DNA of 64,000 bases from Pyrinomonadaceae bacterium (GTDB taxonomy: Bacteria; Acidobacteriota; Blastocatellia; Pyrinomonadales; Pyrinomonadaceae). The position numbers and the translations under genes are program-made. The notes under the pieces were generated by a model. The model was not told the DNA's origin. It saw nothing but the letters and a program-made list of their open reading frames with translations, and ran no database searches. Shown here piece by piece: positions 1-36,700 of this stretch. Numbering within the stretch: position 1 is the stretch's first letter; every line of letters begins with the position of its first letter. The stretch covers positions 43,407-107,406 of the forward strand of contig JBKKAL010000297.1 in the NCBI GenBank assembly GCA_046714695.1, written 5' to 3'.

Positions 1-92
1 CGTTCTTCGCTCATCTCCGCGCGACGGATTGTGCCCGCGCCGCCGTGAATCGCCAGCGATAACCTTGCTTCGTCATTTATGTCAGAGTTCAT
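1..92 (-). CDS. isoaspartyl peptidase / L-asparaginase family protein, first 30 codons only (gene runs off window start)
   Basis: Reverse-strand ATG at 92-90 is followed by MNSDINDEARLSLAIHGGAGTIRRAEMSEE. AIHGGAG is the conserved N-terminal motif of plant-type asparaginase/isoaspartyl peptidase Ntn hydrolases. The fragment is too short for the ORF track. Confidence 0.45.
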   Translation of the reverse strand, partial: MNSDINDEARLSLAIHGGAGTIRRAEMSEE

Positions 93-156
93 GATTGAGA
101 GAATGAAAAATTTCGCCGCGCACGTCAACCCCTAAGAGATAAACAGCAGGATTATC

Positions 157-173
157 CGAATCAATTTAGGAAA
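157..173. repeat. left copy of 17-nt imperfect direct repeat flanking the kinase-hicB islet
   Basis: CGAATCAATTTAGGAAA matches 2004-2020 CGAATCAATTTAAGAAA at 16/17 positions. On the minus strand this copy still reads F-L-N-stop, like the end of the patatin CDS. Confidence 0.6.
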
Positions 174-345
174 AGTGACACATTCTGCTGAAATAGTCTG
201 AGTCATTTGGCACAATAGTATTTAGGCGTCAGAACTGATGTAAAATAAGGCGTCATTTAGGACGTCTAATAAGCGTTAGGTTGCTTAATATACCTCGTCG
301 AAGTAGAACTTGCAGATTTAGAATTCCTGAATGGAGTTTCATTAG

Positions 346-1593
346 ATGAGCTTAAAGAAACCTTTAATCTTTGAAACCACTTTCGCCACTTTTACTGCAA
401 CAGAGATTCTCGGCGAAGGAGGCGCTGGGCGTGTCTACAAGGCAAGTGACGAAGCAGGCGCGGTATTTGCAGTGAAGTTGCTAGACCCTGCGAAAGCAAA
501 TAAGGATAAGCTCAAACGATTCAAGAACGAGCTTCTCTTTGGCCAAAGAAATAAACACAGCAATATCATTACTGTTGTAGATCATGGGATATTCAAGGAC
601 ACAAAGAAGAGTGCGCCTTTTTATGTGATGCCTTACTACCACGCATCGTTGCGCTCGCTTCTGCCCGAACGCTTAGATAAAAACAATACTTTGACTTACT
701 TTGCACAGCTATTGAATGGCGTAGAGGCAGCACATCTCCAGAAAATCGTCCATCGCGACCTTAAACCTGAAAATGTATTATATGATCAGAACGCGGATGC
801 GCTTCTGGTTGCTGATTTTGGCGTGGCTCATTTTGAGGAAGAAGAACTCTACACACTTATCGAAACAGCACCAAACACGCGGCTAGCCAACTTTCAATAT
901 GCTGCCCCAGAACAAAGGGCCCGAGGGCTTCAGGTAGACGGTCGTGCGGATATTTACGCGCTGGGATTGATATTGAATGAAATGTTTACTAACGAAGTGC
1001 CTCAAGGTACAGACTACAAGACAATTGGAGGCGTTGCACCAGAATATAGTTATCTTGATGAGCTAGTTTCGGCAATGTTGAGACAGTCTCCCTCAGCACG
1101 ACCCGAATCTATTGAAGTAATCAAACGAGAACTTATTGGCCGCAGACAAGAGTTTGTGACTCGTCAGCGTATTAGTGAGTTAAAGGGAACCGTTGTTCCC
1201 ATAACTGACCTAGATGATCCATTAATTGCTGACCCGCCCCGTCTAGTTGATTTTGATTGGGACCGAGGAAGACTGACCTTGGTTTTTCAACGTCCAGTGA
1301 ATCCCCAGTGGGTTCAGGCACTCCGGAACATGGGCAGTTACAGCTCTGTTATGGATAAAGGACCGGAGCGGTTTTCAATCTCTGGAGACAAAGCAATTAT
1401 TGAGGCAAGAGAAGATGAGGTTCAGCGAATCATTGACCATTTTAAACAATGGCTTCCTAATGCCAATCGCGTATACGAAGATATTATACGAAGGGGAAAA
1501 GCGGAGGCAGAGGATCGTGAACGCAGGCAATTACAAGCTGATATTGAGGAGAAAGAGCGCCGTCAGCGCGTTCTTAAAAGCATAACGATATAG
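346..1593 (+). CDS. Hanks-type Ser/Thr protein kinase with an uncharacterised C-terminal region of about 145 aa
   Basis: 415-aa ORF with the kinase motifs GEGGAGRVY (Gly loop), AVK (catalytic Lys), HRDLKPEN, DFG and APE. Residues ~275-415 carry no motif I recognise and end in a charged coiled-coil-like tail (AEAEDRERRQLQADIEEKERRQR). The gene is visibly AT-richer than its flanks. Confidence 0.85.
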   Translation: MSLKKPLIFETTFATFTATEILGEGGAGRVYKASDEAGAVFAVKLLDPAKANKDKLKRFKNELLFGQRNKHSNIITVVDHGIFKDTKKSAPFYVMPYYHASLRSLLPERLDKNNTLTYFAQLLNGVEAAHLQKIVHRDLKPENVLYDQNADALLVADFGVAHFEEEELYTLIETAPNTRLANFQYAAPEQRARGLQVDGRADIYALGLILNEMFTNEVPQGTDYKTIGGVAPEYSYLDELVSAMLRQSPSARPESIEVIKRELIGRRQEFVTRQRISELKGTVVPITDLDDPLIADPPRLVDFDWDRGRLTLVFQRPVNPQWVQALRNMGSYSSVMDKGPERFSISGDKAIIEAREDEVQRIIDHFKQWLPNANRVYEDIIRRGKAEAEDRERRQLQADIEEKERRQRVLKSITI

Positions 1594-1624
1594 TTAAACG
1601 AGGAGCAGTGAGCCCATTAGAGAC

Positions 1625-1719
1625 GCAACCTAACAACTCATTCAACCGGACTCGCAATAGCGCGGCTCTTAAACTCAATCTTGATTGCTCGCCGGTCAAT
1701 TCCAGCGTAAGGTGCTTGC
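1625..1719 (+). other. attC-like imperfect palindrome between kinase and hicB (tentative)
   Basis: It starts with GCAACCTAAC, which contains ACCTAAC and fits the inverse-core consensus RYYYAAC. It ends with GTAAGGTGCTTGC, a degenerate GTTRRRY core. An inner ACCGG/CCGGT pairing occurs at 1645-1649 and 1692-1696. The exact reverse complement GTTAGGTTGC lies at 275-284, upstream of the kinase. Confidence 0.3.
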
Positions 1720-1761
1720 GCTTTATGAACGGGATACGGAAAATGTCACCGGAGGTGGCGT

Positions 1762-1977
1762 ATGAAGTATCGAGTCTTGATTGAACAGGACGAAGATGGG
1801 GTATTTGTTGCAGAGGTTCCATCTCTGCCCGGTTGTATTTCGCAAGGTCAAAGCAGAGAACAAGCTATTGAGAATATCAAAGAGGCAATTGCCCTGTATC
1901 TTGAAAGCTTAGAGGCTCACAACGATGCTGTCCCGCCGCCGATCACAGAAGAAATCGTGGAACACGGCTATTTCTAA
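1762..1977 (+). CDS. hicB: HicB-like antitoxin (UPF0150 fold), no HicA partner seen
   Basis: 71-aa ORF. YRVLIEQDEDGVFVAEVPSLPGCISQGQSREQAIENIKEAIALYLE matches the HicB/UPF0150 N-terminal signature (PxLPGCxxxGxxxEEAxxNxxEAI). A GGAGGTGG Shine-Dalgarno lies 5 nt upstream of the ATG. Confidence 0.75.
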   Translation: MKYRVLIEQDEDGVFVAEVPSLPGCISQGQSREQAIENIKEAIALYLESLEAHNDAVPPPITEEIVEHGYF

Positions 1978-2003
1978 AAGCCTGGCTTAAATACAAAACT
2001 ACT

Positions 2004-2020
2004 CGAATCAATTTAAGAAA
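2004..2020. repeat. right copy of the 17-nt direct repeat, overlapping the stop and last codons of the patatin gene
   Basis: CGAATCAATTTAAGAAA. Positions 2008-2019 are the minus-strand codons F-L-N-stop of the patatin-like CDS. Confidence 0.6.
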
Positions 2021-2959: not shown

Positions 2960-3982
2960 CTATTTTGTGCTCCAGAAAAATGGCGTCTTCGGTTTGAGAC
3001 TTCTTTCGACAGCCAGGGCAACGAATCCCATCGTATAGCGGGCATTGATTTCCAGTAGCGGATGCAGGCCGCGCGCGTGCTCAAGCGCATCAATCCCGAC
3101 CGGCCCCGTGTAACCTTCTTTGAATAATCGCTCCGCTACGATACCGGCGACTCTTTCCAGCTCTGCCGTGCGATTGGGAGAGGGCGGGCGACCGAGCATA
3201 TAACCTTTGCCTGTGCCCGCGCCATTGGTTTGTAAATCGCTGATGCCATAAACCGTGTATGCTCCGCCCGCCGCAATCTCCAACACGACGCCGTATTCGC
3301 GAATTACTTCGAGCCACGGTTGGAAGATCAACGTCTCGCCTTTGCTTAAGCGGCGCTTTGCCCATACGGCTTGCGGCCCCTCTAATGACGGGCCTCTGCC
3401 AAGCACACGGTCACGCGCGGCGAAGCCGAACGGGCTCTTGATAACCCATTTATCACCGCCGCCGGGGCAAGCGCGCGCCGTCTGTTCCTGCAGCTCATCA
3501 AAGGTCTCGGCGGTTGCGGCTCCCGGTTGAGCCCACCCCAGCTCGACTTCGAGCGCGTGGCTCCATAATTTTGAATTAACACGCGCTACAGTACTGAACG
3601 GTATCTGGCCGGACACATCAGCCCCAACCTGTTCGCCAAGAGCGACAGCGCCTGGAGTCCAGCCCCATGGCGTGAAAATGCGCGAGGGCTGTGATGCACT
3701 ATGCGTCGGGGAGATTAGTTCCACTCCGCGCCTTCGCGCCTCGCGTTGGAGTTGCTCAGACCAAGGCTCTCTGAGAAGCAGCGCATCGCCCGCGTGTGCG
3801 AGCCACAATAAATGGGGTGCGAGTCTGTGGTTGAGAACGTCCGAGGACGGAAGGCGGCGATATGCGGTGCCGCCCGCGCAGGAAAGCTCGGTCTCAAAAT
3901 CGGCATTCATGTGCCATAGTCTAGACGCCATGTGCGAAATGAAAAGCTTTTGTCGTCGCCGCTCTCTGTAAGCCGGACACAC
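2960..3982 (-). CDS. ATP-grasp-like domain protein (start uncertain; alternatives at 3931 and 3910)
   Basis: 340-aa ORF. KWVIKSPFGFAARDRVLG, a later FQPWLEV segment and GPVGIDALEH...LHPLLEINARYTMGF resemble ATP-grasp ligase core motifs. It is tightly packed between the ABC-F and patatin genes. Confidence 0.5.
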   Translation of the reverse strand: MCPAYRERRRQKLFISHMASRLWHMNADFETELSCAGGTAYRRLPSSDVLNHRLAPHLLWLAHAGDALLLREPWSEQLQREARRRGVELISPTHSASQPSRIFTPWGWTPGAVALGEQVGADVSGQIPFSTVARVNSKLWSHALEVELGWAQPGAATAETFDELQEQTARACPGGGDKWVIKSPFGFAARDRVLGRGPSLEGPQAVWAKRRLSKGETLIFQPWLEVIREYGVVLEIAAGGAYTVYGISDLQTNGAGTGKGYMLGRPPSPNRTAELERVAGIVAERLFKEGYTGPVGIDALEHARGLHPLLEINARYTMGFVALAVERSLKPKTPFFWSTK

Positions 3983-12003: not shown

Positions 12004-13086
12004 TTAACGTATCACCTTCACATCCCGCTCGCTGAAGATTTTCCATCCCGTGTCTGTCCGCTGCCATCGCAGTTCCTGTATGACTTCGCCCTGACGCCTG
12101 CGCCCGCTTGTTTCAGTGGCGTATTGCTTGCGAAATCGCATGATCGCCGCGCGTCCGCCATCGCGGAATATGATTTCGGGCTCCTCCGCACGCACTTCTA
12201 TTAGCTCAACTTTTTTAAAAGCATGTGTTCTCTCTGTTCGGATAAAGGAGCGCGTAACATTACGCGTCAGGTAAAAAGCTTTGACTTCCGGCATGTAGAA
12301 GGTGACAAGTTTACTGATGTCCCGCGCATTCGTTGCAGCCACCCAATCCTCTAACGCTGCACGCAATGCGGCGGCCTCATCGCTCTGGACTTTCGCGGCA
12401 GGCGATTCGACCGGATTTGAGGAAACGGCCGCCCTGTCGGCAGGTTTAGCTTCTCGCTCGCCGGCAAGGTTCCATTGGGCCACTTCGGAAATCCTGTCGT
12501 AGATGCTCAGCACAACCACAGGTTCATTTAGTTGAGCAGCGTTGATGCGCCTGGTGACGCGCAGTTGTTGCCCCCCATCTATCGGATCAAACGTGACAGC
12601 GAAGCTATCGTCCTGGCTTCCGCTGGTGTTGACCGTCAACCTCTCACCGAACAGCGTCGCCCGCGTGTGCACTATACGGCTACCGGATAATCGCGCTCTC
12701 TGGGCAACTCCGTCAGCCTCGAAGGTAATACGGGGCGCGCGCGATGAGGCGATGGAAATAGTGCGCCCCGCACGTTCGATAGCAAGCAGATCAGGCGGGG
12801 TGAGACGTACCGCCAGGTCAATAAAGAAGCGTTGCTGTTCCTTGAATGGAAGATTGCTCGTAGCGCCCTCCACCACGGAATAAAGTTTGTCGCTGCTCTC
12901 TACGTTTATCCGGTAAACGCCCGTCAAACTGGATTCCGCCTGTGAAACCTTACGACCGCGAGAGCTATCGGGTGACGTGTTCCTCGACTGCCGACGCTGC
13001 GTGGTCTGTGCATCTGCTGTAATAGACAAGATGGCAAACAAAAGAAGTGTTACAGATATGAGAGATTTGCTTTCAGTTACTCGCAT
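12004..13086 (-). CDS. secreted hypothetical protein with C-terminal SnoaL/DUF4440-like domain
   Basis: Signal peptide MRVTESKSLISVTLLLFAILSITADAQ. The C-terminal ~120 aa (LEDWVAATNARDISKLVTFY...WKIFSE) look NTF2/SnoaL-like. Confidence 0.6.
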   Translation of the reverse strand: MRVTESKSLISVTLLLFAILSITADAQTTQRRQSRNTSPDSSRGRKVSQAESSLTGVYRINVESSDKLYSVVEGATSNLPFKEQQRFFIDLAVRLTPPDLLAIERAGRTISIASSRAPRITFEADGVAQRARLSGSRIVHTRATLFGERLTVNTSGSQDDSFAVTFDPIDGGQQLRVTRRINAAQLNEPVVVLSIYDRISEVAQWNLAGEREAKPADRAAVSSNPVESPAAKVQSDEAAALRAALEDWVAATNARDISKLVTFYMPEVKAFYLTRNVTRSFIRTERTHAFKKVELIEVRAEEPEIIFRDGGRAAIMRFRKQYATETSGRRRQGEVIQELRWQRTDTGWKIFSERDVKVIR

Positions 13087-30700: not shown

Positions 30701-33700
30701 TGGAGCGGGCGACAACAATGTTATTAAGGGATGCTTTATTGGCACCGACCCGACGGGCACGACTGGTATGGGTAACTCTGTTAATGGCATCTTCGTTAAC
30801 GGCAGCGCGGGCGCGTCGCACAACCAGATCGGCGGCCCCGCGGAAGCCGATCGCAACCTAATCTCCGGCAACAACAACTACGCTATCTTACTTGAGAGCA
30901 GTACCAACAACACGGTGCAGAACAATTATATCGGCACTGACAAGAACGGCACCGGGCCGCTCCCCAACTTGACCAGCGGCATCCGCTTTTACGCTAACGC
31001 TCATGATAACCAGATCGGCGGCCTCTCGTCCGCCGAGGGGAACTTGATCGCCTTCAACGGCAGTTCCGGTATACAGGCCACCGATGCAGGTAACCCGAGT
31101 CTACGTAACCGCTTCCTCGGCAACTCGATTCACTCCAACTACACAATCGGGATTGAGCTCAACGGCAACGGCTTCGACACGAACGACGCGGGCGACGCCG
31201 ATGGAGGCGCAAACAGCACTCAGAATTATCCGGTCCTCACCTCCGTCTCGACTTCGAGCGGCTCGACTAACGTCGCCGGCACGCTCAACTCAACTTCTAA
31301 TACATCTTTTCGCGTCGAGTTCTTTTCCAACCCGGGCTCTAACCCTTCGACACGACGTCAGGGAAAGACCTTCCTCGGCTTCGTCAACGTCACGACGGAT
31401 CCCTCGGGCAACGCCTCTGTCAACACGAGCTTTAACCCGCCCGTCTCTACCACCCTCGGCATTACCGCGACGGCGACGAGAGATCCCGGCGACGCTGACC
31501 CGAACGCCACCTCCGAGTTCTCAAACTACGTACAGGAATTGGTCGCTCCACAGACCTTCACGGTCAACTCCGCAGCCGACACGCCAGACGCCAACCAGGG
31601 GGACTACATCTGCGACGTAGACCTCGGCACTCCCGGCTCTCAATGTACGCTGCGCGCTGCAATCCAGGAGGCGAACGTCAATCCGAGCGCCGACACCATC
31701 ACCTTCTCTATAGGTACAGGCGCGCAGACTATCAGCTTCACCGACGGCGTGCCGACGATCGCTTTCCCCGTCACGATTGACGGCTACACGCAGCCGGGTG
31801 CGTCAGTGAACACACTCCCAACGGGCAACAACGCCGTGCTCCTGATTGAACTCGACGGCACTAATGCTAATAGTAATGCGATAGAAATCTTTGCCAGTAA
31901 CTGCACCGTCAAAGGGCTCATCATCAATCGCTTCCTAGCAAAAGGGATTTTGTTGCAGAACGGCGACGGTAACATCATCCAGGGCAACTTCATCGGCACG
32001 AACGCTGCGGGCACCGCCAAACTCGCCAACAACGGCGGTATAAGCATCAATAATTCATCGAATAACATTATCGGCGGAACGGCGCCTGCTGCTCGCAACC
32101 TCATCTCGGGCAACAACGGGCCTGGCATTGATTGCTTCGCCTGTAGCGGTCTCGTCGCTCAGGGCAATTACATCGGTACGAATGCTGCCGGCACAGCCGC
32201 CGTCGCTAATACCGGGGCCGGCTTATACTTGGAAGGATCGCAAAACGTTGTTGTCGGCGGAACGTCGCCGGGCGCGCGCAACGTCATCTCCGGCAATGGC
32301 GACGCCGGCTTCGACATTGAGTACATGTCCTCGGGCGCGCAAGCGGCCGTCACCATTCAGGGAAATTACATCGGCACCGCGGCAGATGGCATCTCAAATC
32401 TGGGCAATGGCTATGAGGGCATCCTCCTGTACGAAAGCAGTGACTGCATCGTCGGCGGGACGACTCCTGGCGCAGGCAATATTATCGCCTTTAGCGCTGG
32501 TGCCGGCGTGACTGTTGATAGCGAGCCTGCCCTCAACAACTCCATCCGGGGAAACAGCATTCATTCAAACGCTGAGCTGGGCATAGAGCTTCATCAATCG
32601 GGCGGTGTCACGCAGAACGATACAGGCGACACCGACAGCGGCGAGAACAATTTCCAGAACTTCCCCGTTCTGACATCGGCCACATCGAACGGCACGAGCA
32701 CTACCGTCAACGGCACGCTCAACTCTATCCAGAGCCTCAACTACGCCGTCGAGTTCTTTTCGAGTCCGACCTGCGACCCGTCGGGCAATGGCGAGGGGCA
32801 GACCTTCCTCGGCTCGACCAACGCTGCAACTGACGCTAATGGCGACGCGACGTTCAACGCGACCCTGCCTATTGGAGTGACTGCAGGACATTTCGTGACG
32901 GCGACGGCAACCGATTCTTCGGGCAACACCTCGGAGTTCTCGCAGTGCATGCAGGTAACTGCTGCCCCGGCACCTACTTCGTTAATCATCAGCGAGTTTC
33001 GTCTGCACGGAGGCTTGGGCACTGGCGACGAGTTTGTCGAGCTTTTCAACAACAGCGATACAGCCATCACCGTCAGTACGACGGACGGCTCCACCGGCTG
33101 GTCTATTGTAGATAATAGCGGCTATGCGATCTTGAGCATCCCCAACGGCACGGTCATTCCGGCGCGCGGCCACTATCTAGGCGTCTTTTATTACAGCACC
33201 GGGAGCAGCGTCAGCACTTATGCTACGCCGGACGCAAACTGGGGCTACTCCGACGGCCATCAAATCGGCGATGGCGGCGGCGTTGCCATCTTCAGCACGG
33301 GTAACGTCGCAAACTTCACCAACGCTTACCGCCTCGATGCCGTCGGCTTCGGCGGCGCGAATGCTCTTTATCGTGAAGGTGCGGGGCTCGCGCCTGCCAA
33401 TGGCATTACCGTTGATGGCGAGTACAGTTTCGTCCGCAAGATGACGGGCTACGATTCGCAGGATACCGATAACAATGCTAGCGACTTTGTCTTCGTCTCC
33501 ACGACGGGCGCGGCGTTTAGCGGCGAACAATCAATCCTCGGAGCGCCGGGGCCTGAGAATTCTGGCAGCCCGCGCCGGGGAATTATTCCGGGCAACACAG
33601 GGCTTAGCGTCGCGCTACTGGACACGAGCGCTGCGGCCACGGCGTCGCCCAACTTTGTGCGCGACTTTAATCCGGTGCGCAACGGCTCACAGGGTACGAT

Positions 33701-36700
33701 GGAGATTCGCCGAACGATTACCAATAACACCGGCGTGACCCTGACACGGCTTCGCTTCCGCGTCACAGACATCACAACCCTCGGCTCGATCACGACCAAC
33801 GGAGCGGACGTTCGCGTCTTGACCTCCGCCGATGCCACTGTGAGCACAGGCTCAGGCACGGTCGCCGTCAAGGGCACGACGCTTGAGCAGCCGCCGAATC
33901 AGTTCAGTAACGGCGGCGGTTTGAACTCATCGCTGAACGTCGCACTGCCAGGCAATGCCCTTGCTAACGGCGCGAGCATCAACGTCAGTTTCCTGCTGGG
34001 CGTCAGCCAGACGGGCACGTACAGATTCGAGGTTGATGCCGGACTCAGTAATCCACAGGAGCTTATCAGCGCAGGCACTCCTGCGCCATCCATCTACGGG
34101 CGCGTCAGTAATACCAGCAACGGGCCCGCCACAGCCTTTAGCAATGTGACTGTGACTTTGAGCGGCGACGCTTCTGTCACCACCACGACAGACGCCAACG
34201 GCAACTATTCATTTAACAACCTGACGGCCAGTGGCAACTACACTGTCACGCCATCTAAGATCGGATACCTCTTTACTCCGCCCAGCCAGAACATCAGCGG
34301 CCTGAGCGGTAATCAGGCGGCGGACTTTGCCGGAGCGTTGCCGATCCCGCAATCCGGCAACATCCTGATCTCGGAGTTTCGTTTCCGTGGCGCGACGGGC
34401 CAGGGCGATGAGTATGTCGAAATCTATAACAACACGGACGCGCCCTTCATCGTCAGCACAGAAGATGGCTCAACAGGATGGTCAGTCGTTGACAGCAATG
34501 GTTATGCGCTCATCACGATTCCCAACGGCACTGTGATTCCGGCGCGCGGCCATTACCTTGGCAAGTTCTTTTACAACGGGTCAAACCTTAACTCTTATGC
34601 ACCGGCGGACGTGACATGGGGATACCACGACGGCTATCAAATTGGAGACGATGGCGGCGTCGCCATCTTCAAGACTTCGAACGCGGCGAACTTCACGGTT
34701 GCCAATCGGCTCGATGCCGCCGGTTTTAATAATCAGACCGCGCCCGTGCCTGTGCTCTACCGCGAAGGCACGGGTCTCGATCCCATTGGGCCCAGCGATG
34801 GCGAGTACGCTTTCGTTCGCCGGATGACGAGCGGGCTGCCGCAGGACACGGACAATAACGCCGCCGATTTTATCTTCGTCGCGACCACGGGCGGAGCATT
34901 CAACGATATTCTGTCGCTACTCGGAGCGCCGGGGCCTGAAGGAATGCTGAGCCCCCTCTTCAACGCTACGCTTTCGGAATCGTTGATTGACGCGACGACG
35001 GCTGAGTCTGCAACGCCCAACCGCGTGCGCGATACGACGCCCAGCGGGCCTGCTCCTTTTGGCACGCTGACGGTTCGTCGCAAGTACACGAACAATACCG
35101 GCTCGACCATCACACGGTTGCGACTGCGCGCAGTTGATCTCTCGACCCTCAACAATCGAACCAACACCGAGGCAGACCTGCGCCTCACGTCCTCTACGGA
35201 CGCAACGGTGACCACAGGCGCAGAAGGCACGGTCGCCGTCAAGGGCACGACGCTCGAACAGCCGCCTACTCAAGCGGGCGGCGGCGGGATCAACTCAAGC
35301 CTCAGCGTGGCATTGCCGGGCGGATCTCTGGCCGTCGGCCAGAGCGTCAATGTTCAGTTTGTGATGAACGTCCAACAGGACGGAACGTACCGCTACAAAT
35401 TTGTGCCGGAAGTGAATGTGCCGCAGACGCCGCGCATCACAGGCCGCGTCGCAGATGCCAGCAACAACGGCGTCTCCGGTGTAACGATAACATTGGGCGG
35501 CGCGACATCATCCTCCACGACGACGGATGTTAACGGAGATTACGCATTCAATAACCTGACGGCCAGTGGCAACTACACTGTGGCCCCGTCCCTTTCCGGC
35601 TACACGTTTACTCCCGCGAGCCAGACAATCAGCAATCTGAGAGGAACACAGACCGCAAACTTTACGGCCACAGCTTCAACCTATACGATTTCAGGTCAGG
35701 TCAACGACGCGAACAATAACCCGCAAAGCGGTGTCACACTCACTTTGAGCGGTTCGCAATCGGCAACCTTCCCCACCAGCGCTACGGGTAACTATTCATT
35801 TACCAATCTCACAGCGGGCGGCAACTACACCGTTACGCCGTCGAAGACAGGCTATAATTTCACGCCCGCAAACCAGACCTTTAATAATCTGTCGGCCAAC
35901 CAGACGGCCAACTTTATCTTGTCCCCTGCCACGACGCTGACCGTCACAAACACGAACGACAGCGGCGCGGGCTCGCTCAGACAGGCGATTACGGATGCAA
36001 ATGCTTTTTCCGGTTTCCAGACAATCACCTTTAACATCTCCGGTACGGGAGTCCAGACCATTACGCTCGCCTCGCAGTTACCTGGTATTACAGACACTGC
36101 GAGCATTGATGCTACGACCCAGCCCGGATACGCGGGTACGCCATTGATCGAGCTGAACGGTAATAACGCGGTGGGCAATGCGCTTGTTATTACCGCTGGC
36201 AATAGTCTTGTGCGCGGTCTGGTCATCAACCGCTTCACAGGCAATGCCCTGCTCGTGCAATCGGCTGGTAATTTTATTCAGGGCAACTACATCGGCACGA
36301 ACGCCGCTGGTATTGCCGCCTCGGCCAACGGCGGGAGCGGTATCGTCATCACCCGCGGGACCAATACCATTGGAGCAACGACGGCCGGTGGTACGGGCAA
36401 CCTGATCTCCGGCAATAGTAACTTCGGCATCTTTATCAATCAGGTCAACGTTAACAGCCCGGCGGGCGGCAACGTAATTTCCGGCAACTATATCGGGACG
36501 AACGCAGCGGGTACTGCTGCCATCCCCAACCGCAACAACGCTATTGATATTGCCGGCGCGTCGAATACGATCATCGGCGGCGCCACCGCCGGGGCGCGTA
36601 ATGTGATCTCCGGTAACGGCCTTCCGAATCAAACGCTCGGTCGCGGCATTCGAATCCGCATCAATGGCGTCCGAGATAGTCTGCCGAGCGGAACAATTAT

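What the first reader, a model, noticed from the sequence alone, without database searches (positions are those of the whole stretch)
93..2020. AT-rich 1.85-kb islet (kinase + HicB) bounded by direct repeats that duplicate the 3' end of the patatin gene
- **Seen (repeats):** CGAATCAATTTAGGAAA (157-173) and CGAATCAATTTAAGAAA (2004-2020) are 16/17 identical, with looser similarity 4 nt further left.
- **Seen (coding context):** the right copy is the last three codons plus stop (F-L-N-stop, minus strand) of the patatin-like CDS. The left copy still reads F-L-N-stop, because the one difference is a synonymous TTA/CTA Leu change.
- **Seen (composition and content):** the sequence between the copies is clearly AT-richer than the ~60% GC flanks. 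It holds only a Ser/Thr kinase and a HicB-like gene, with no integrase or transposase.
- **Inference:** a small mobile or mobilised cassette integrated into the 3' end of the patatin gene and regenerated its terminus, as many integrative elements do at gene 3' ends.
Basis: partly seen in the sequence, partly recalled or inferred. Interest (0 to 1): 0.6.

Follow-up and report, generated by a model that had tools for sequence, protein, structure and literature searches.

The report
Stray integron fragment beside patatin gene
The AT-rich islet is a real 1.85-kb insertion, but it is a stray piece of an integron (a docking site plus two captured gene cassettes) that landed between two housekeeping genes with a 17-bp target duplication, which shows how such gene-capture platforms spread around a soil bacterium's chromosome.

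Summary
The 16/17 direct repeat (157-173 and 2004-2020), the low GC (45% against 56%) and the gene content are all there.

Relatives with 84-88% identical patatin carry the predicted empty site. In them the patatin gene is followed directly by the isoaspartyl-peptidase gene, with the 17-mer present once. The repeat is therefore a true target duplication and the islet a true insertion.

The islet is not a kinase-HicB unit. It is an integron fragment made of:
- an attI-like site (217-286, core GTTAGGT);
- a Ser/Thr-kinase cassette with its own attC (1626-1713);
- the stump of a hicBA cassette.

A 91% relative still has hicA and part of the second attC. The window has lost 347 nt there.

The genome encodes one genuine integron integrase on another contig and at least 133 attC sites of the same family. 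At least four other integrase-less attI-like platforms carrying cassettes lie at ordinary intergenic sites. The attI-proximal cassette differs between strains, which suggests the platform is serviced in trans.

The step that first put the fragment here is unexplained. IntI recombination makes no duplication, and the right end lies inside an attC.

I class it as a new variant of a known kind (CALIN/SALIN), of moderate interest.

The parts
1..92 (-). 5' end of the isoaspartyl-peptidase (Asparaginase_2) gene, ATG at 92-90; native left flank
   Evidence: ORF and translation. Homologues in L029, L031 and L032 carry PF01112.
93..156 (-). Native spacer upstream of the peptidase gene, including the conserved GGGGTTGACG motif
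   Evidence: Collinear with the empty-site spacers of L031 and L032. Stop codon plus spacer are 56/73 identical to L031.
157..173 (.). Left copy of the 17-bp target duplication (CGAATCAATTTAGGAAA)
   Evidence: Present once in the empty sites.
174..216 (+). Left end of the insert: a shortened copy of the 'left extension' shared by the integrase-less attI-like platforms. Only the right arm of their 13-bp hairpin is kept. The conserved GAAATAGTCTGAGTCATTTGGCA lies at 190-212.
   Evidence: Alignment with the C238, C76, C3 and C253 copies. There are five copies in this genome and none in seven congeners.
217..286 (+). attI-like recombination site; core GTTAGGT at 275-281, cassette junction between G275 and T276
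   Evidence: A profile built without the window finds it at E 4.9e-14. A profile built only from ectopic copies finds the true attI next to intI on C71 at E 5.5e-12. All copies diverge right after GTTRRRY.
276..1707 (+). Ser/Thr-kinase gene cassette (CDS 346-1593)
   Evidence: It starts with TTAGGT and ends at the G of its attC R' box. R'' ACCTAAC (1628-1634) is the exact complement of GTTAGGT at 275-281. The cassette is absent from relatives X2 and L028. Pkinase hit at 4e-35.
1626..1713 (+). attC site of the kinase cassette; R' reads GTAAGGT (1707-1713) instead of GTTAGGT
   Evidence: nhmmer with a 55-seed attC profile that did not include it: E 3.2e-10, the only hit on the 145-kb contig. The bottom strand folds at -25.8 kcal/mol, at the weak end of the family range. 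L028 has GTTAGGT at this position.
1708..1961 (+). Retained part of a hicBA cassette: hicB codons 1-67 (CDS 1762-1977; the last four codons are new)
   Evidence: 90.8% identical to L028 over 1691-1961. PF15919 hit. Homologues are 70 aa and differ at the C-terminus.
1962..1970 (+). Deletion scar: relative to L028, 347 nt are missing (hicB tail, all of hicA, 5' half of the second attC)
   Evidence: BLAST of the window against L028. Metagenome X2 shows 368 extra letters here. L028 carries a HicA_toxin gene.
1971..2003 (+). Right end of the insert, shared with L028; no recognisable attC 3' half
2004..2020 (.). Right copy of the 17-bp target duplication, overlapping the patatin stop and its last three codons
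2008..2868 (-). Patatin-like phospholipase gene, native right flank
   Evidence: PF01734 hit at 7e-26. Synteny with the 340-aa ORF and the ABC-F gene is kept in congeners.

Best explanation
**What it is.** The islet is an ectopic, integrase-less integron fragment. It consists of an attI-like docking site, one complete cassette (a Hanks-type Ser/Thr kinase with its attC) and the remnant of a hicBA toxin-antitoxin cassette.

**Shown: the insertion.**
- In the ancestor, the patatin and isoaspartyl-peptidase genes were adjacent.
- The fragment was inserted immediately after the patatin stop, and 17 bp of target were duplicated.
- This happened in the common ancestor of a sub-lineage whose patatin proteins are at least 91% identical.

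**Shown: later changes.**
- The attI-proximal cassette differs between strains: kinase here, another ORF in L028, no kinase in X2.
- 347 nt were lost here, removing hicA and part of the second attC.

**Inferred: how it works now.** The single IntI encoded on contig C71 services this attI-like site in trans, inserting and exchanging cassettes. Promoter activity reading in from the attI side probably expresses the kinase. The kinase attC now has GTA instead of GTT in R', so the kinase cassette may be frozen in place.

**Inferred, weakly: the founding insertion.** It was not a canonical IntI reaction. It could have been a Campbell-type integration of a circle carrying a 17-bp match to the target. 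Alternatively, a DNA fragment was captured at a staggered break that was then filled in.
For: **Empty sites.**
- L031 (patatin 86%), L032 (84%) and L029/L030 (88%) have patatin followed directly by an Asparaginase_2 gene.
- L031 is collinear with the window once 174-2020 is removed, and carries the 17-mer once.

**Filled relative L028 (patatin 91%).** Its order is patatin, truncated attC, hicA, hicB, full attC, then a different ORF.

**Metagenome X2.** It covers 4-194 and 1636-2409 but gives zero depth over the kinase.

**Integron context.**
- An IntI scores 472 bits on TIGR02249 (cut-off 265) at C71:32949-33890, followed by attI and a cassette array.
- There are 133 attC hits of one family on 50 contigs, and exactly one in contig C297.
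- The attC consensus fold has 17 pairs with 97.6% of cells paired.

**attI-like homology.** Leave-one-out profiles give E 4.9e-14 and 5.5e-12.

**Cassette junction logic.** GTTAGGT at 275-281 is the exact complement of the R'' box ACCTAAC at 1628-1634.

**Composition.** The islet's tetranucleotide distance to the cassette arrays is 0.020, against 0.037 to the genome. The arrays have 47% GC.

**Kinase as a travelling cassette.** Homologues at 77-78% identity elsewhere keep a homologous attC 5' part after the stop and sit among IS and toxin-antitoxin genes.
Against: - IntI recombination does not duplicate target DNA, so the 17-bp repeat is not explained by the integron machinery.
- The right end of the insert lies inside an attC whose 3' half is not recognisable, rather than at an R' core.
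- 'attI-like' rests on sequence homology and junction position only. No IntI binding or recombination was tested.
- None of the other integrase-less platforms shows a flanking duplication, so no general insertion rule emerges.
- Cassette turnover in trans is inferred from three strains, two of them known only from short metagenome contigs.
- The left junction of L028 was not recovered.
Confidence: 0.75

Rival explanations
1. This is a classical integrative islet. A dedicated tyrosine or serine integrase recognised a 17-bp core at the patatin 3' end (attB), and the element carried the same core (attP). The integrase gene was later lost, or the element is mobilised in trans. The integron pieces are just cargo.
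For: - A 17-bp direct repeat overlaps a gene's 3' end and regenerates the reading frame, as in many genomic islands.
- There is a sharp filled/empty polymorphism.
- The duplication has sharp edges.
Against: - There is no integrase, excisionase or remnant of either in the 1.85 kb.
- Neither 17-mer occurs anywhere else in the assembly, so no sister element or second att site is seen.
- Essentially the whole insert is accounted for by integron parts.
- The right end falls inside a truncated attC, which suggests a ragged fragment rather than a defined element end.
Confidence: 0.15
2. IntI-catalysed insertion of cassettes into a non-canonical genomic site (attC x attG), the route proposed for SALINs and small CALINs.
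For: - The genome has an active-looking IntI and many scattered single attC sites.
- The published attG route explains isolated cassettes without an integrase (bioRxiv 10.1101/2022.09.11.507474).
- The 17-mer contains GAT/GWT-like triplets.
Against: - attC x attG insertion should leave a complete attC at the right junction. It should leave no attI-like site on the left and no target duplication.
- Here the left part is a 110-nt attI-like platform, the right attC lacks its 3' half already in L028, and 17 bp are duplicated.
Confidence: 0.06
3. The repeat is a chance match and the region is simply a variable intergenic stretch.
For: - In a 4-kb AT-rich stretch, one 16/17 match somewhere is not extremely rare.
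- Congeners at 82% patatin identity break synteny right after the patatin stop.
Against: - No shuffle out of 2000 gives 16/17 between the two border zones.
- Removing one copy plus the intervening DNA reproduces the real empty sites base for base in register.
Confidence: 0.02
4. The kinase and HicB form a functional pair: the kinase replaces the HicA toxin in a new toxin-antitoxin or defence module.
For: The genes are adjacent and on the same strand. HicB has no HicA partner in the window or anywhere in the assembly.
Against: - A complete attC separates the two genes, so they are different cassettes.
- The 91% relative has hicB-hicA with a different upstream cassette.
- X2 has hicB without the kinase.
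- Kinase homologues occur without hicB.
- The hicB 3' end carries a deletion scar.
Confidence: 0.02

Closest known systems
CALIN / SALIN (clusters of, or single, attC sites lacking an integron integrase; Cury et al. 2016, PMC4889954; Neron et al. 2022, PMC9024848)
   Same: Cassettes with attC sites lie in the chromosome with no intI nearby, in a genome that also holds a complete integron. The cassettes are small, AT-richer and strain-variable.
   Different: - This one keeps a recognisable attI-like site at its head.
- It belongs to a set of at least five such integrase-less platforms in one genome.
- It has a clean filled/empty comparison showing that it arrived as a block with a 17-bp target duplication.
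- The published origins for CALINs are integrase loss in place, rearrangement by transposable elements, and attG insertion. None of them predicts that signature.
Sedentary chromosomal integron (intI + attI + cassette array), as on contig C71 of this genome
   Same: It shares the attC family (R'' YCTAAC, R' GTTAGRY, about 105 nt), a homologous attI sequence, the same junction logic and toxin-antitoxin cassettes among its cargo.
   Different: There is no intI within the islet or within 40 kb on either side on the same contig. It carries only one and a half cassettes, and its terminal attC is lost.
Genomic islets integrated at the 3' end of a gene by a site-specific integrase (att core duplication)
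   Same: Direct repeats include the last codons and the stop of the target gene. The reading frame is preserved, and filled and empty alleles both exist.
   Different: It has no integrase, no second copy of the core anywhere in the genome, and no defined element ends.
HicAB type II toxin-antitoxin cassettes of integrons
   Same: hicB is a 70-aa PF15919 protein, common in Pyrinomonadaceae. In the nearest relative it is followed by an overlapping hicA and an attC.
   Different: Here hicA is deleted and HicB has a new four-residue tail. No hicA is detectable in the assembly.
PD-T4-6-type single-gene Ser/Thr-kinase phage defence; phage-defence integron cassettes (bioRxiv 10.1101/2024.07.02.601719)
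   Same: It is a stand-alone Hanks kinase carried as a mobile cassette. Its best PADLOC hits are PD-T4-6 models (1e-42). Homologues lie among IS and toxin-antitoxin genes.
   Different: The hits cover only the generic kinase domain. The conserved 150-aa C-terminal part matches no family. No defence phenotype is known.

Membership tests
Integron gene cassette (kinase) | ORF followed by an attC site: an imperfect palindrome with R''(RYYYAAC)-L''...L'-R'(GTTRRRY), 57-141 nt long | tested here: met
   Window 1626-1713 matches the genome's attC profile at E 3.2e-10 and was not among the seeds. R'' is ACCTAAC. The family fold has 17 pairs with 97.6% of cells paired. The site is about 88 nt long.
Integron gene cassette (kinase) | Conserved GTT triplet at the R' crossover point | tested here: not met
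   R' reads GTAAGGT (1707-1713). The relative L028 has GTTAGGT. The site is probably crippled for further recombination, although the cassette's origin is not in doubt.
Integron gene cassette (kinase) | The cassette begins with TTRRRY, which pairs with its own R'' box | tested here: met
   TTAGGT at 276-281 preceded by G275. GTTAGGT is the exact complement of ACCTAAC at 1628-1634.
Integron gene cassette (kinase) | Presence or absence is independent of the neighbouring genes | tested here: met
   The kinase is absent in X2 and L028, which share hicB and both flanks. Homologues are found in unrelated contexts with a homologous attC 5' part.
attI site | Lies next to intI at the head of the array | tested here: not met
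   There is no intI on contig C297. The only IntI above the cut-off is on C71.
attI site | Sequence homology to a bona fide attI, and a cassette junction at GTTRRRY | tested here: met
   Leave-one-out profiles link the window site to the C71 attI (E 4.9e-14 and 5.5e-12). All copies diverge right after GTTRRRY.
attI site | Bound and recombined by IntI | not testable with these tools
   This needs a recombination or binding assay.
CALIN / SALIN | One or more attC sites with no integron integrase nearby | tested here: met
   There is one complete attC, with a second in the relative, and no IntI on the 145-kb contig.
attC x attG inserted cassette | A complete attC at the downstream junction, a target GWT, no attI and no duplication | tested here: not met
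   The terminal attC lacks its 3' half in L028 and is gone in the window. An attI-like platform lies on the left, and 17 bp are duplicated.
Integrase-borne genomic islet at a gene 3' end | Direct repeats made of the att core, overlapping the target gene's end | tested here: met
Integrase-borne genomic islet at a gene 3' end | Its own integrase, or a remnant, inside the element | tested here: not met
   ORF list and Pfam scans.
Transposon / IS | Transposase and terminal inverted repeats | tested here: not met
   There is no transposase and no terminal inverted repeat beyond 3 nt.
HicAB toxin-antitoxin pair | Adjacent hicA toxin gene | tested here: not met
   hicA is deleted in the window. tblastn finds no hicA in the genome. 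It is present in L028 (PF07927).
PD-T4-6 defence kinase | A match to the family models beyond the generic kinase fold | tested here: inconclusive
   PADLOC PDLC04042 scores 1e-42 over residues 13-267, but 34 kinase models hit. No NCBIfam model reaches its cut-off.

The most novel reading that the evidence does not exclude
This Pyrinomonadaceae lineage may have turned the attI platform itself into a portable unit. A species-specific module (a hairpin-bearing left extension, an attI-like site and cassettes) would have spread to at least five ordinary intergenic sites. The single IntI would service them in trans as satellite docking sites. At this locus the unit arrived with a 17-bp target duplication made by an enzyme other than IntI. 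That would be a so far undescribed way in which integrons multiply their entry points.
Probability: 0.2. Interest if true: 0.75.

Novelty: new variant of a known kind. Interest (0 to 1): 0.5.

Why it matters
How integrase-less cassette clusters arise is debated. The proposals are integrase loss in place, shuffling by transposons, and IntI-driven insertion at attG sites.

This locus offers a rare natural case with both filled and empty alleles. It shows a fourth signature: a block containing an attI-like site and cassettes inserted with a 17-bp target duplication, followed by a difference in the first cassette between strains.

If the attI-like sites work with the distant IntI, a genome can have several cassette entry points, each next to a different host promoter. 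That would change how cassette expression and integron capacity are estimated in soil bacteria. It also gives a concrete, cheap assay to run.

Tried and rejected
**Congeners as empty sites.** Four congeners with 82% patatin identity all break synteny at the patatin stop, so they were uninformative. Closer metagenome relatives were needed.

**Flanking duplications around the other platforms.** Searches around C3, C238, C39, C252, C76 and C253 found none of 11-17 nt within 9 kb.

**Borders of the other platforms.**
- Metagenome contigs laid on the C238 locus gave only fragmentary cover.
- A congener empty site was found for C3, but the intergenic DNA is too diverged to place the borders.

**The left-extension element in public genomes.** An exact-pattern scan of genome contigs found nothing. 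Seven congeners have no copy.

**A match that proved to be chance.** The 15-nt match of the left copy region to C71:40073-40087, inside the cassette array, has a BLAST E-value near 1.

**The 17-mer as a collapsed attC L'-R' box, or as a copy of the attI motif TCATTTAGGA.** The resemblance is suggestive. However, the same sequence is native to the empty sites, and I could not test it.

**The truncated left extension.** It might be a full-length copy with three small deletions, which would place the family's left terminus exactly at the 17-mer. This is plausible but statistically weak.

**Single-strand folds of the intergenic regions.** They were not better than shuffles. The attC was identified by family profile, not by its fold.
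Full report
**1. The observation**

The two 17-mers are at the stated coordinates and are 16/17 identical. The right copy spans the patatin stop (2008-2010) and the last three codons. The left copy reads the same residues.

Each 17-mer occurs once in the 5.1-Mb assembly. The window is contig C297:43407-107406.

The interval 174-2003 has 45.1% GC against 56.1% for the genome. Only 0.5% of 1830-bp genome windows are as low.

One detail needed correction. The left neighbour, an Asparaginase_2-type isoaspartyl peptidase, is on the minus strand with its ATG at 92. The islet therefore lies between the patatin stop and the peptidase start.

**2. The insertion is real**

Four congeners with 82% identical patatin keep the ABC-F, 340-aa ORF and patatin genes in order. 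They all lose synteny right after the patatin stop, so they decide nothing.

Closer relatives came from the protein collection:
- L031 (patatin 86% identical), L032 (84%) and L029/L030 (88%) have patatin followed directly by the peptidase gene.
- In L031 the sequence runs ...GATTTCTTAAATTGATTCCGACC...GGGGTTGACG...ATGAACTCTGAC.
- When the window's right copy is joined to what follows its left copy, the result aligns with L031 in register. Stop codon plus spacer are 56/73 identical, with two single-base gaps.

The empty sites carry the 17-mer once. Shuffling the two 90-nt border zones never gives 16/17 (0 of 2000).

**3. What the insert is**

*The attC site.* A BLAST of the islet's intergenic DNA against the whole genome showed that 1629-1650 (GCAACCTAACAACTCATTCAAC) recurs dozens of times at 0.5-1 kb spacing on contigs C187, C71, C278 and others. 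The copies are about 105-nt elements. They start with YCTAAC-AACTC-ATTCAAC and end with TTAATTC-GGGC-GTTAGRY, which are the R''/L''...L'/R' boxes of integron attC sites.
- A profile of 55 of them finds 133 sites on 50 contigs.
- It finds exactly one on the 145-kb contig C297, at window 1626-1713 (E 3.2e-10). That site was not among the seeds.
- The family consensus folds into 17 pairs, with 97.6% of cells paired and three pairs showing compensatory changes.

*The integrase.* The genome has one integron integrase above the NCBIfam cut-off. It scores 472 bits against a cut-off of 265, at C71:32949-33890. It faces away from an array of such attC sites.

*The attI-like site.* The stretch between that intI and its first cassette is the attI. 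It aligns with window 214-285. Both end in GCGTTAG(G/A)T, after which the sequences diverge. The link holds in leave-one-out profiles:
- a profile without the window finds window 217-286 at E 4.9e-14;
- a profile built only from ectopic copies finds the C71 attI at E 5.5e-12.

*The kinase cassette.* It runs from T276 to G1707. Its first bases, preceded by G275, read GTTAGGT. That is the exact complement of its own R'' box ACCTAAC at 1628-1634, as expected for a cassette that once closed into a circle.

*Composition.* The islet's tetranucleotide profile is nearer to the cassette arrays (distance 0.020) than to the genome (0.037). The arrays themselves have 47% GC. The low GC is therefore the usual composition of this genome's cassettes.

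**4. hicB and the missing hicA**

The closest filled relative is L028, a 2994-nt Logan contig with 91% identical patatin. Its order is:
- patatin;
- about 70 nt of spacer;
- the 5' half of an attC (profile positions 4-64);
- hicA (PF07927);
- an overlapping hicB;
- a full attC ending in GTTAGGT;
- a different ORF, which runs to the contig end.

The window matches L028 over 1691-1961 (90.8%) and 1971-2300 (87.3%). In between, 347 nt are missing from the window:
- the last codons of hicB;
- all of hicA;
- the attC 5' half.

Further evidence agrees:
- Metagenome X2 shows the same gap as 368 extra letters.
- HicB homologues are 70 aa and differ from the window protein only in the last four residues.
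- No hicA is detectable anywhere in the assembly.

HicB is thus an orphan left by a deletion. The kinase is not its partner, because a complete attC lies between them.

**5. Events after the insertion**

- X2, a soil metagenome holding a 90-95% relative, covers 4-194 and so includes the left junction. It also covers 1636-2409, but gives zero depth over 301-1600.
- L028 has another ORF upstream of the shared attC.
- The attI-proximal cassette therefore differs among three strains that share the insertion. This is what IntI-mediated cassette exchange at attI would produce.
- In the window, the R' box of the kinase attC reads GTAAGGT instead of GTTAGGT. The conserved GTT is lost, so this cassette may no longer be excisable.

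**6. The kinase**

- It has all the Hanks motifs: GEGGAGRVY, VAVK, HRDLKPEN, DFG and APE.
- A conserved C-terminal part of about 150 aa has no family match.
- Its best PADLOC hits are PD-T4-6 models (1e-42), but 34 kinase models hit, so membership is undecided.
- It has no orthologue in 150 genomes of the family, apart from one at 48% identity.
- A 415-421-aa family at 60-81% identity is spread over several phyla in metagenomes.
- Homologues at 77-78% sit next to transposases and toxin-antitoxin genes. In L077 and L074 a homologous attC 5' part follows the stop (ACGAGACGCACCCTAACAAG...).

It behaves as a travelling single-gene cassette. A phage-defence role is a reasonable guess, no more.

**7. 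The wider pattern**

The attI-like element, followed by one or two cassettes with attC sites and with no intI, also occurs on C3, C238, C39 and C252. A copy on C76 has no attC, and C253 carries only the left extension. Each lies about 100 nt from an ordinary gene.

Four copies share a further 'left extension' containing a 13-bp perfect hairpin (GACTATTTCATCA-N11-TGATGAAATAGTC). A fifth copy, on C252, has a variant of it in which both arms have changed together. The window copy keeps only the right arm. The conserved core of that extension occurs five times in this genome and not at all in seven congeners.

The C39 site carries an attI-like element plus three attC sites in congener G002, and is empty in G005, G006 and G007. 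These platforms are therefore polymorphic insertions as well. Only the one in the window has a flanking duplication.

**8. How the fragment got here**

This step is not explained by the evidence.
- IntI recombination exchanges strands at G|TT and creates no duplication.
- The attG route should leave a complete attC on the right and no attI on the left (preprint 10.1101/2022.09.11.507474).
- Here the right end falls within an attC whose 3' half is already unrecognisable in L028.
- There is no recombinase gene, no terminal inverted repeat, and no second copy of the 17-mer in the genome.

The two mechanisms I consider most likely are:
- Campbell-type integration of a circular fragment that carried a 17-bp match to the target, by a site-specific enzyme acting in trans or by short-homology recombination;
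- capture of a linear integron fragment at a staggered break, followed by fill-in.

I cannot separate them.

**9. Verdict**

The nature of the insert is different and more specific than proposed.

It belongs to the known class of integrase-less cassette clusters (CALIN/SALIN). It is an unusual variant because it keeps an attI-like head, is one of several such platforms in the genome, and carries a target duplication.

Noticed in passing
G000 contig C71:32949-43578 (locus L061 covers 32800-36000): A complete chromosomal integron: intI on the minus strand, attI at 34021-34087, then at least 15 attC sites running to the contig end. Contigs C187 (16 attC in 10 kb) and C278 are probably further parts of the array. 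In all there are 133 attC hits on 50 contigs.
   Followed up: partly
G000 contigs C3:6488-6557, C238:36600-36677, C39:29436-29493, C252:12658-12711, C76:12268-12338: Integrase-less attI-like sites, each followed by one or two cassettes with attC (C76 has none), in ordinary intergenic regions. The C39 site is shared with congener G002 (attI plus three attC) and is empty in G005, G006 and G007.
   Followed up: partly
G000 C238, C76, C3, C253 and C252, just left of the attI-like sites; window 184-212 holds a remnant: A conserved 13-bp perfect hairpin (GACTATTTCATCA-N11-TGATGAAATAGTC), with both arms changed together in C252. On the opposite strand its loop holds AAGAGG followed by a two-codon ORF (ATG AAA TAG). 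Function unknown. The element is species-specific.
   Followed up: partly
L029:6905-7010 (JGI 3300044459 contig): The empty patatin-peptidase spacer of this relative holds a long inverted repeat of about 35 bp per arm (REP- or terminator-like). It is absent from L031, L032 and the window.
   Followed up: no
L029:2799-6008: In this relative a 1069-aa BNR/sortilin-like gene lies between the 322-aa ORF and patatin, overlapping the patatin start by 8 nt. It is absent from the window.
   Followed up: no
G000 C76, about 12087-12218 (minus strand): A hicB-like reading frame, 41% identical to the window HicB over 44 residues, directly follows the C76 attI-like site. No attC was detected after it.
   Followed up: no
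window 2960-3982 (minus strand): A conserved 340-aa ORF between the ABC-F gene and patatin has no Pfam match. It is syntenic in all congeners examined.
   Followed up: no
window minus 3843 to minus 922 (upstream of the window on C297); L032:2524-5190: A cyanophycin-synthetase-like gene lies beyond the peptidase gene in L032. A 973-aa ORF sits at the matching place in this genome, which suggests the peptidase works in cyanophycin or beta-aspartyl dipeptide turnover.
   Followed up: no
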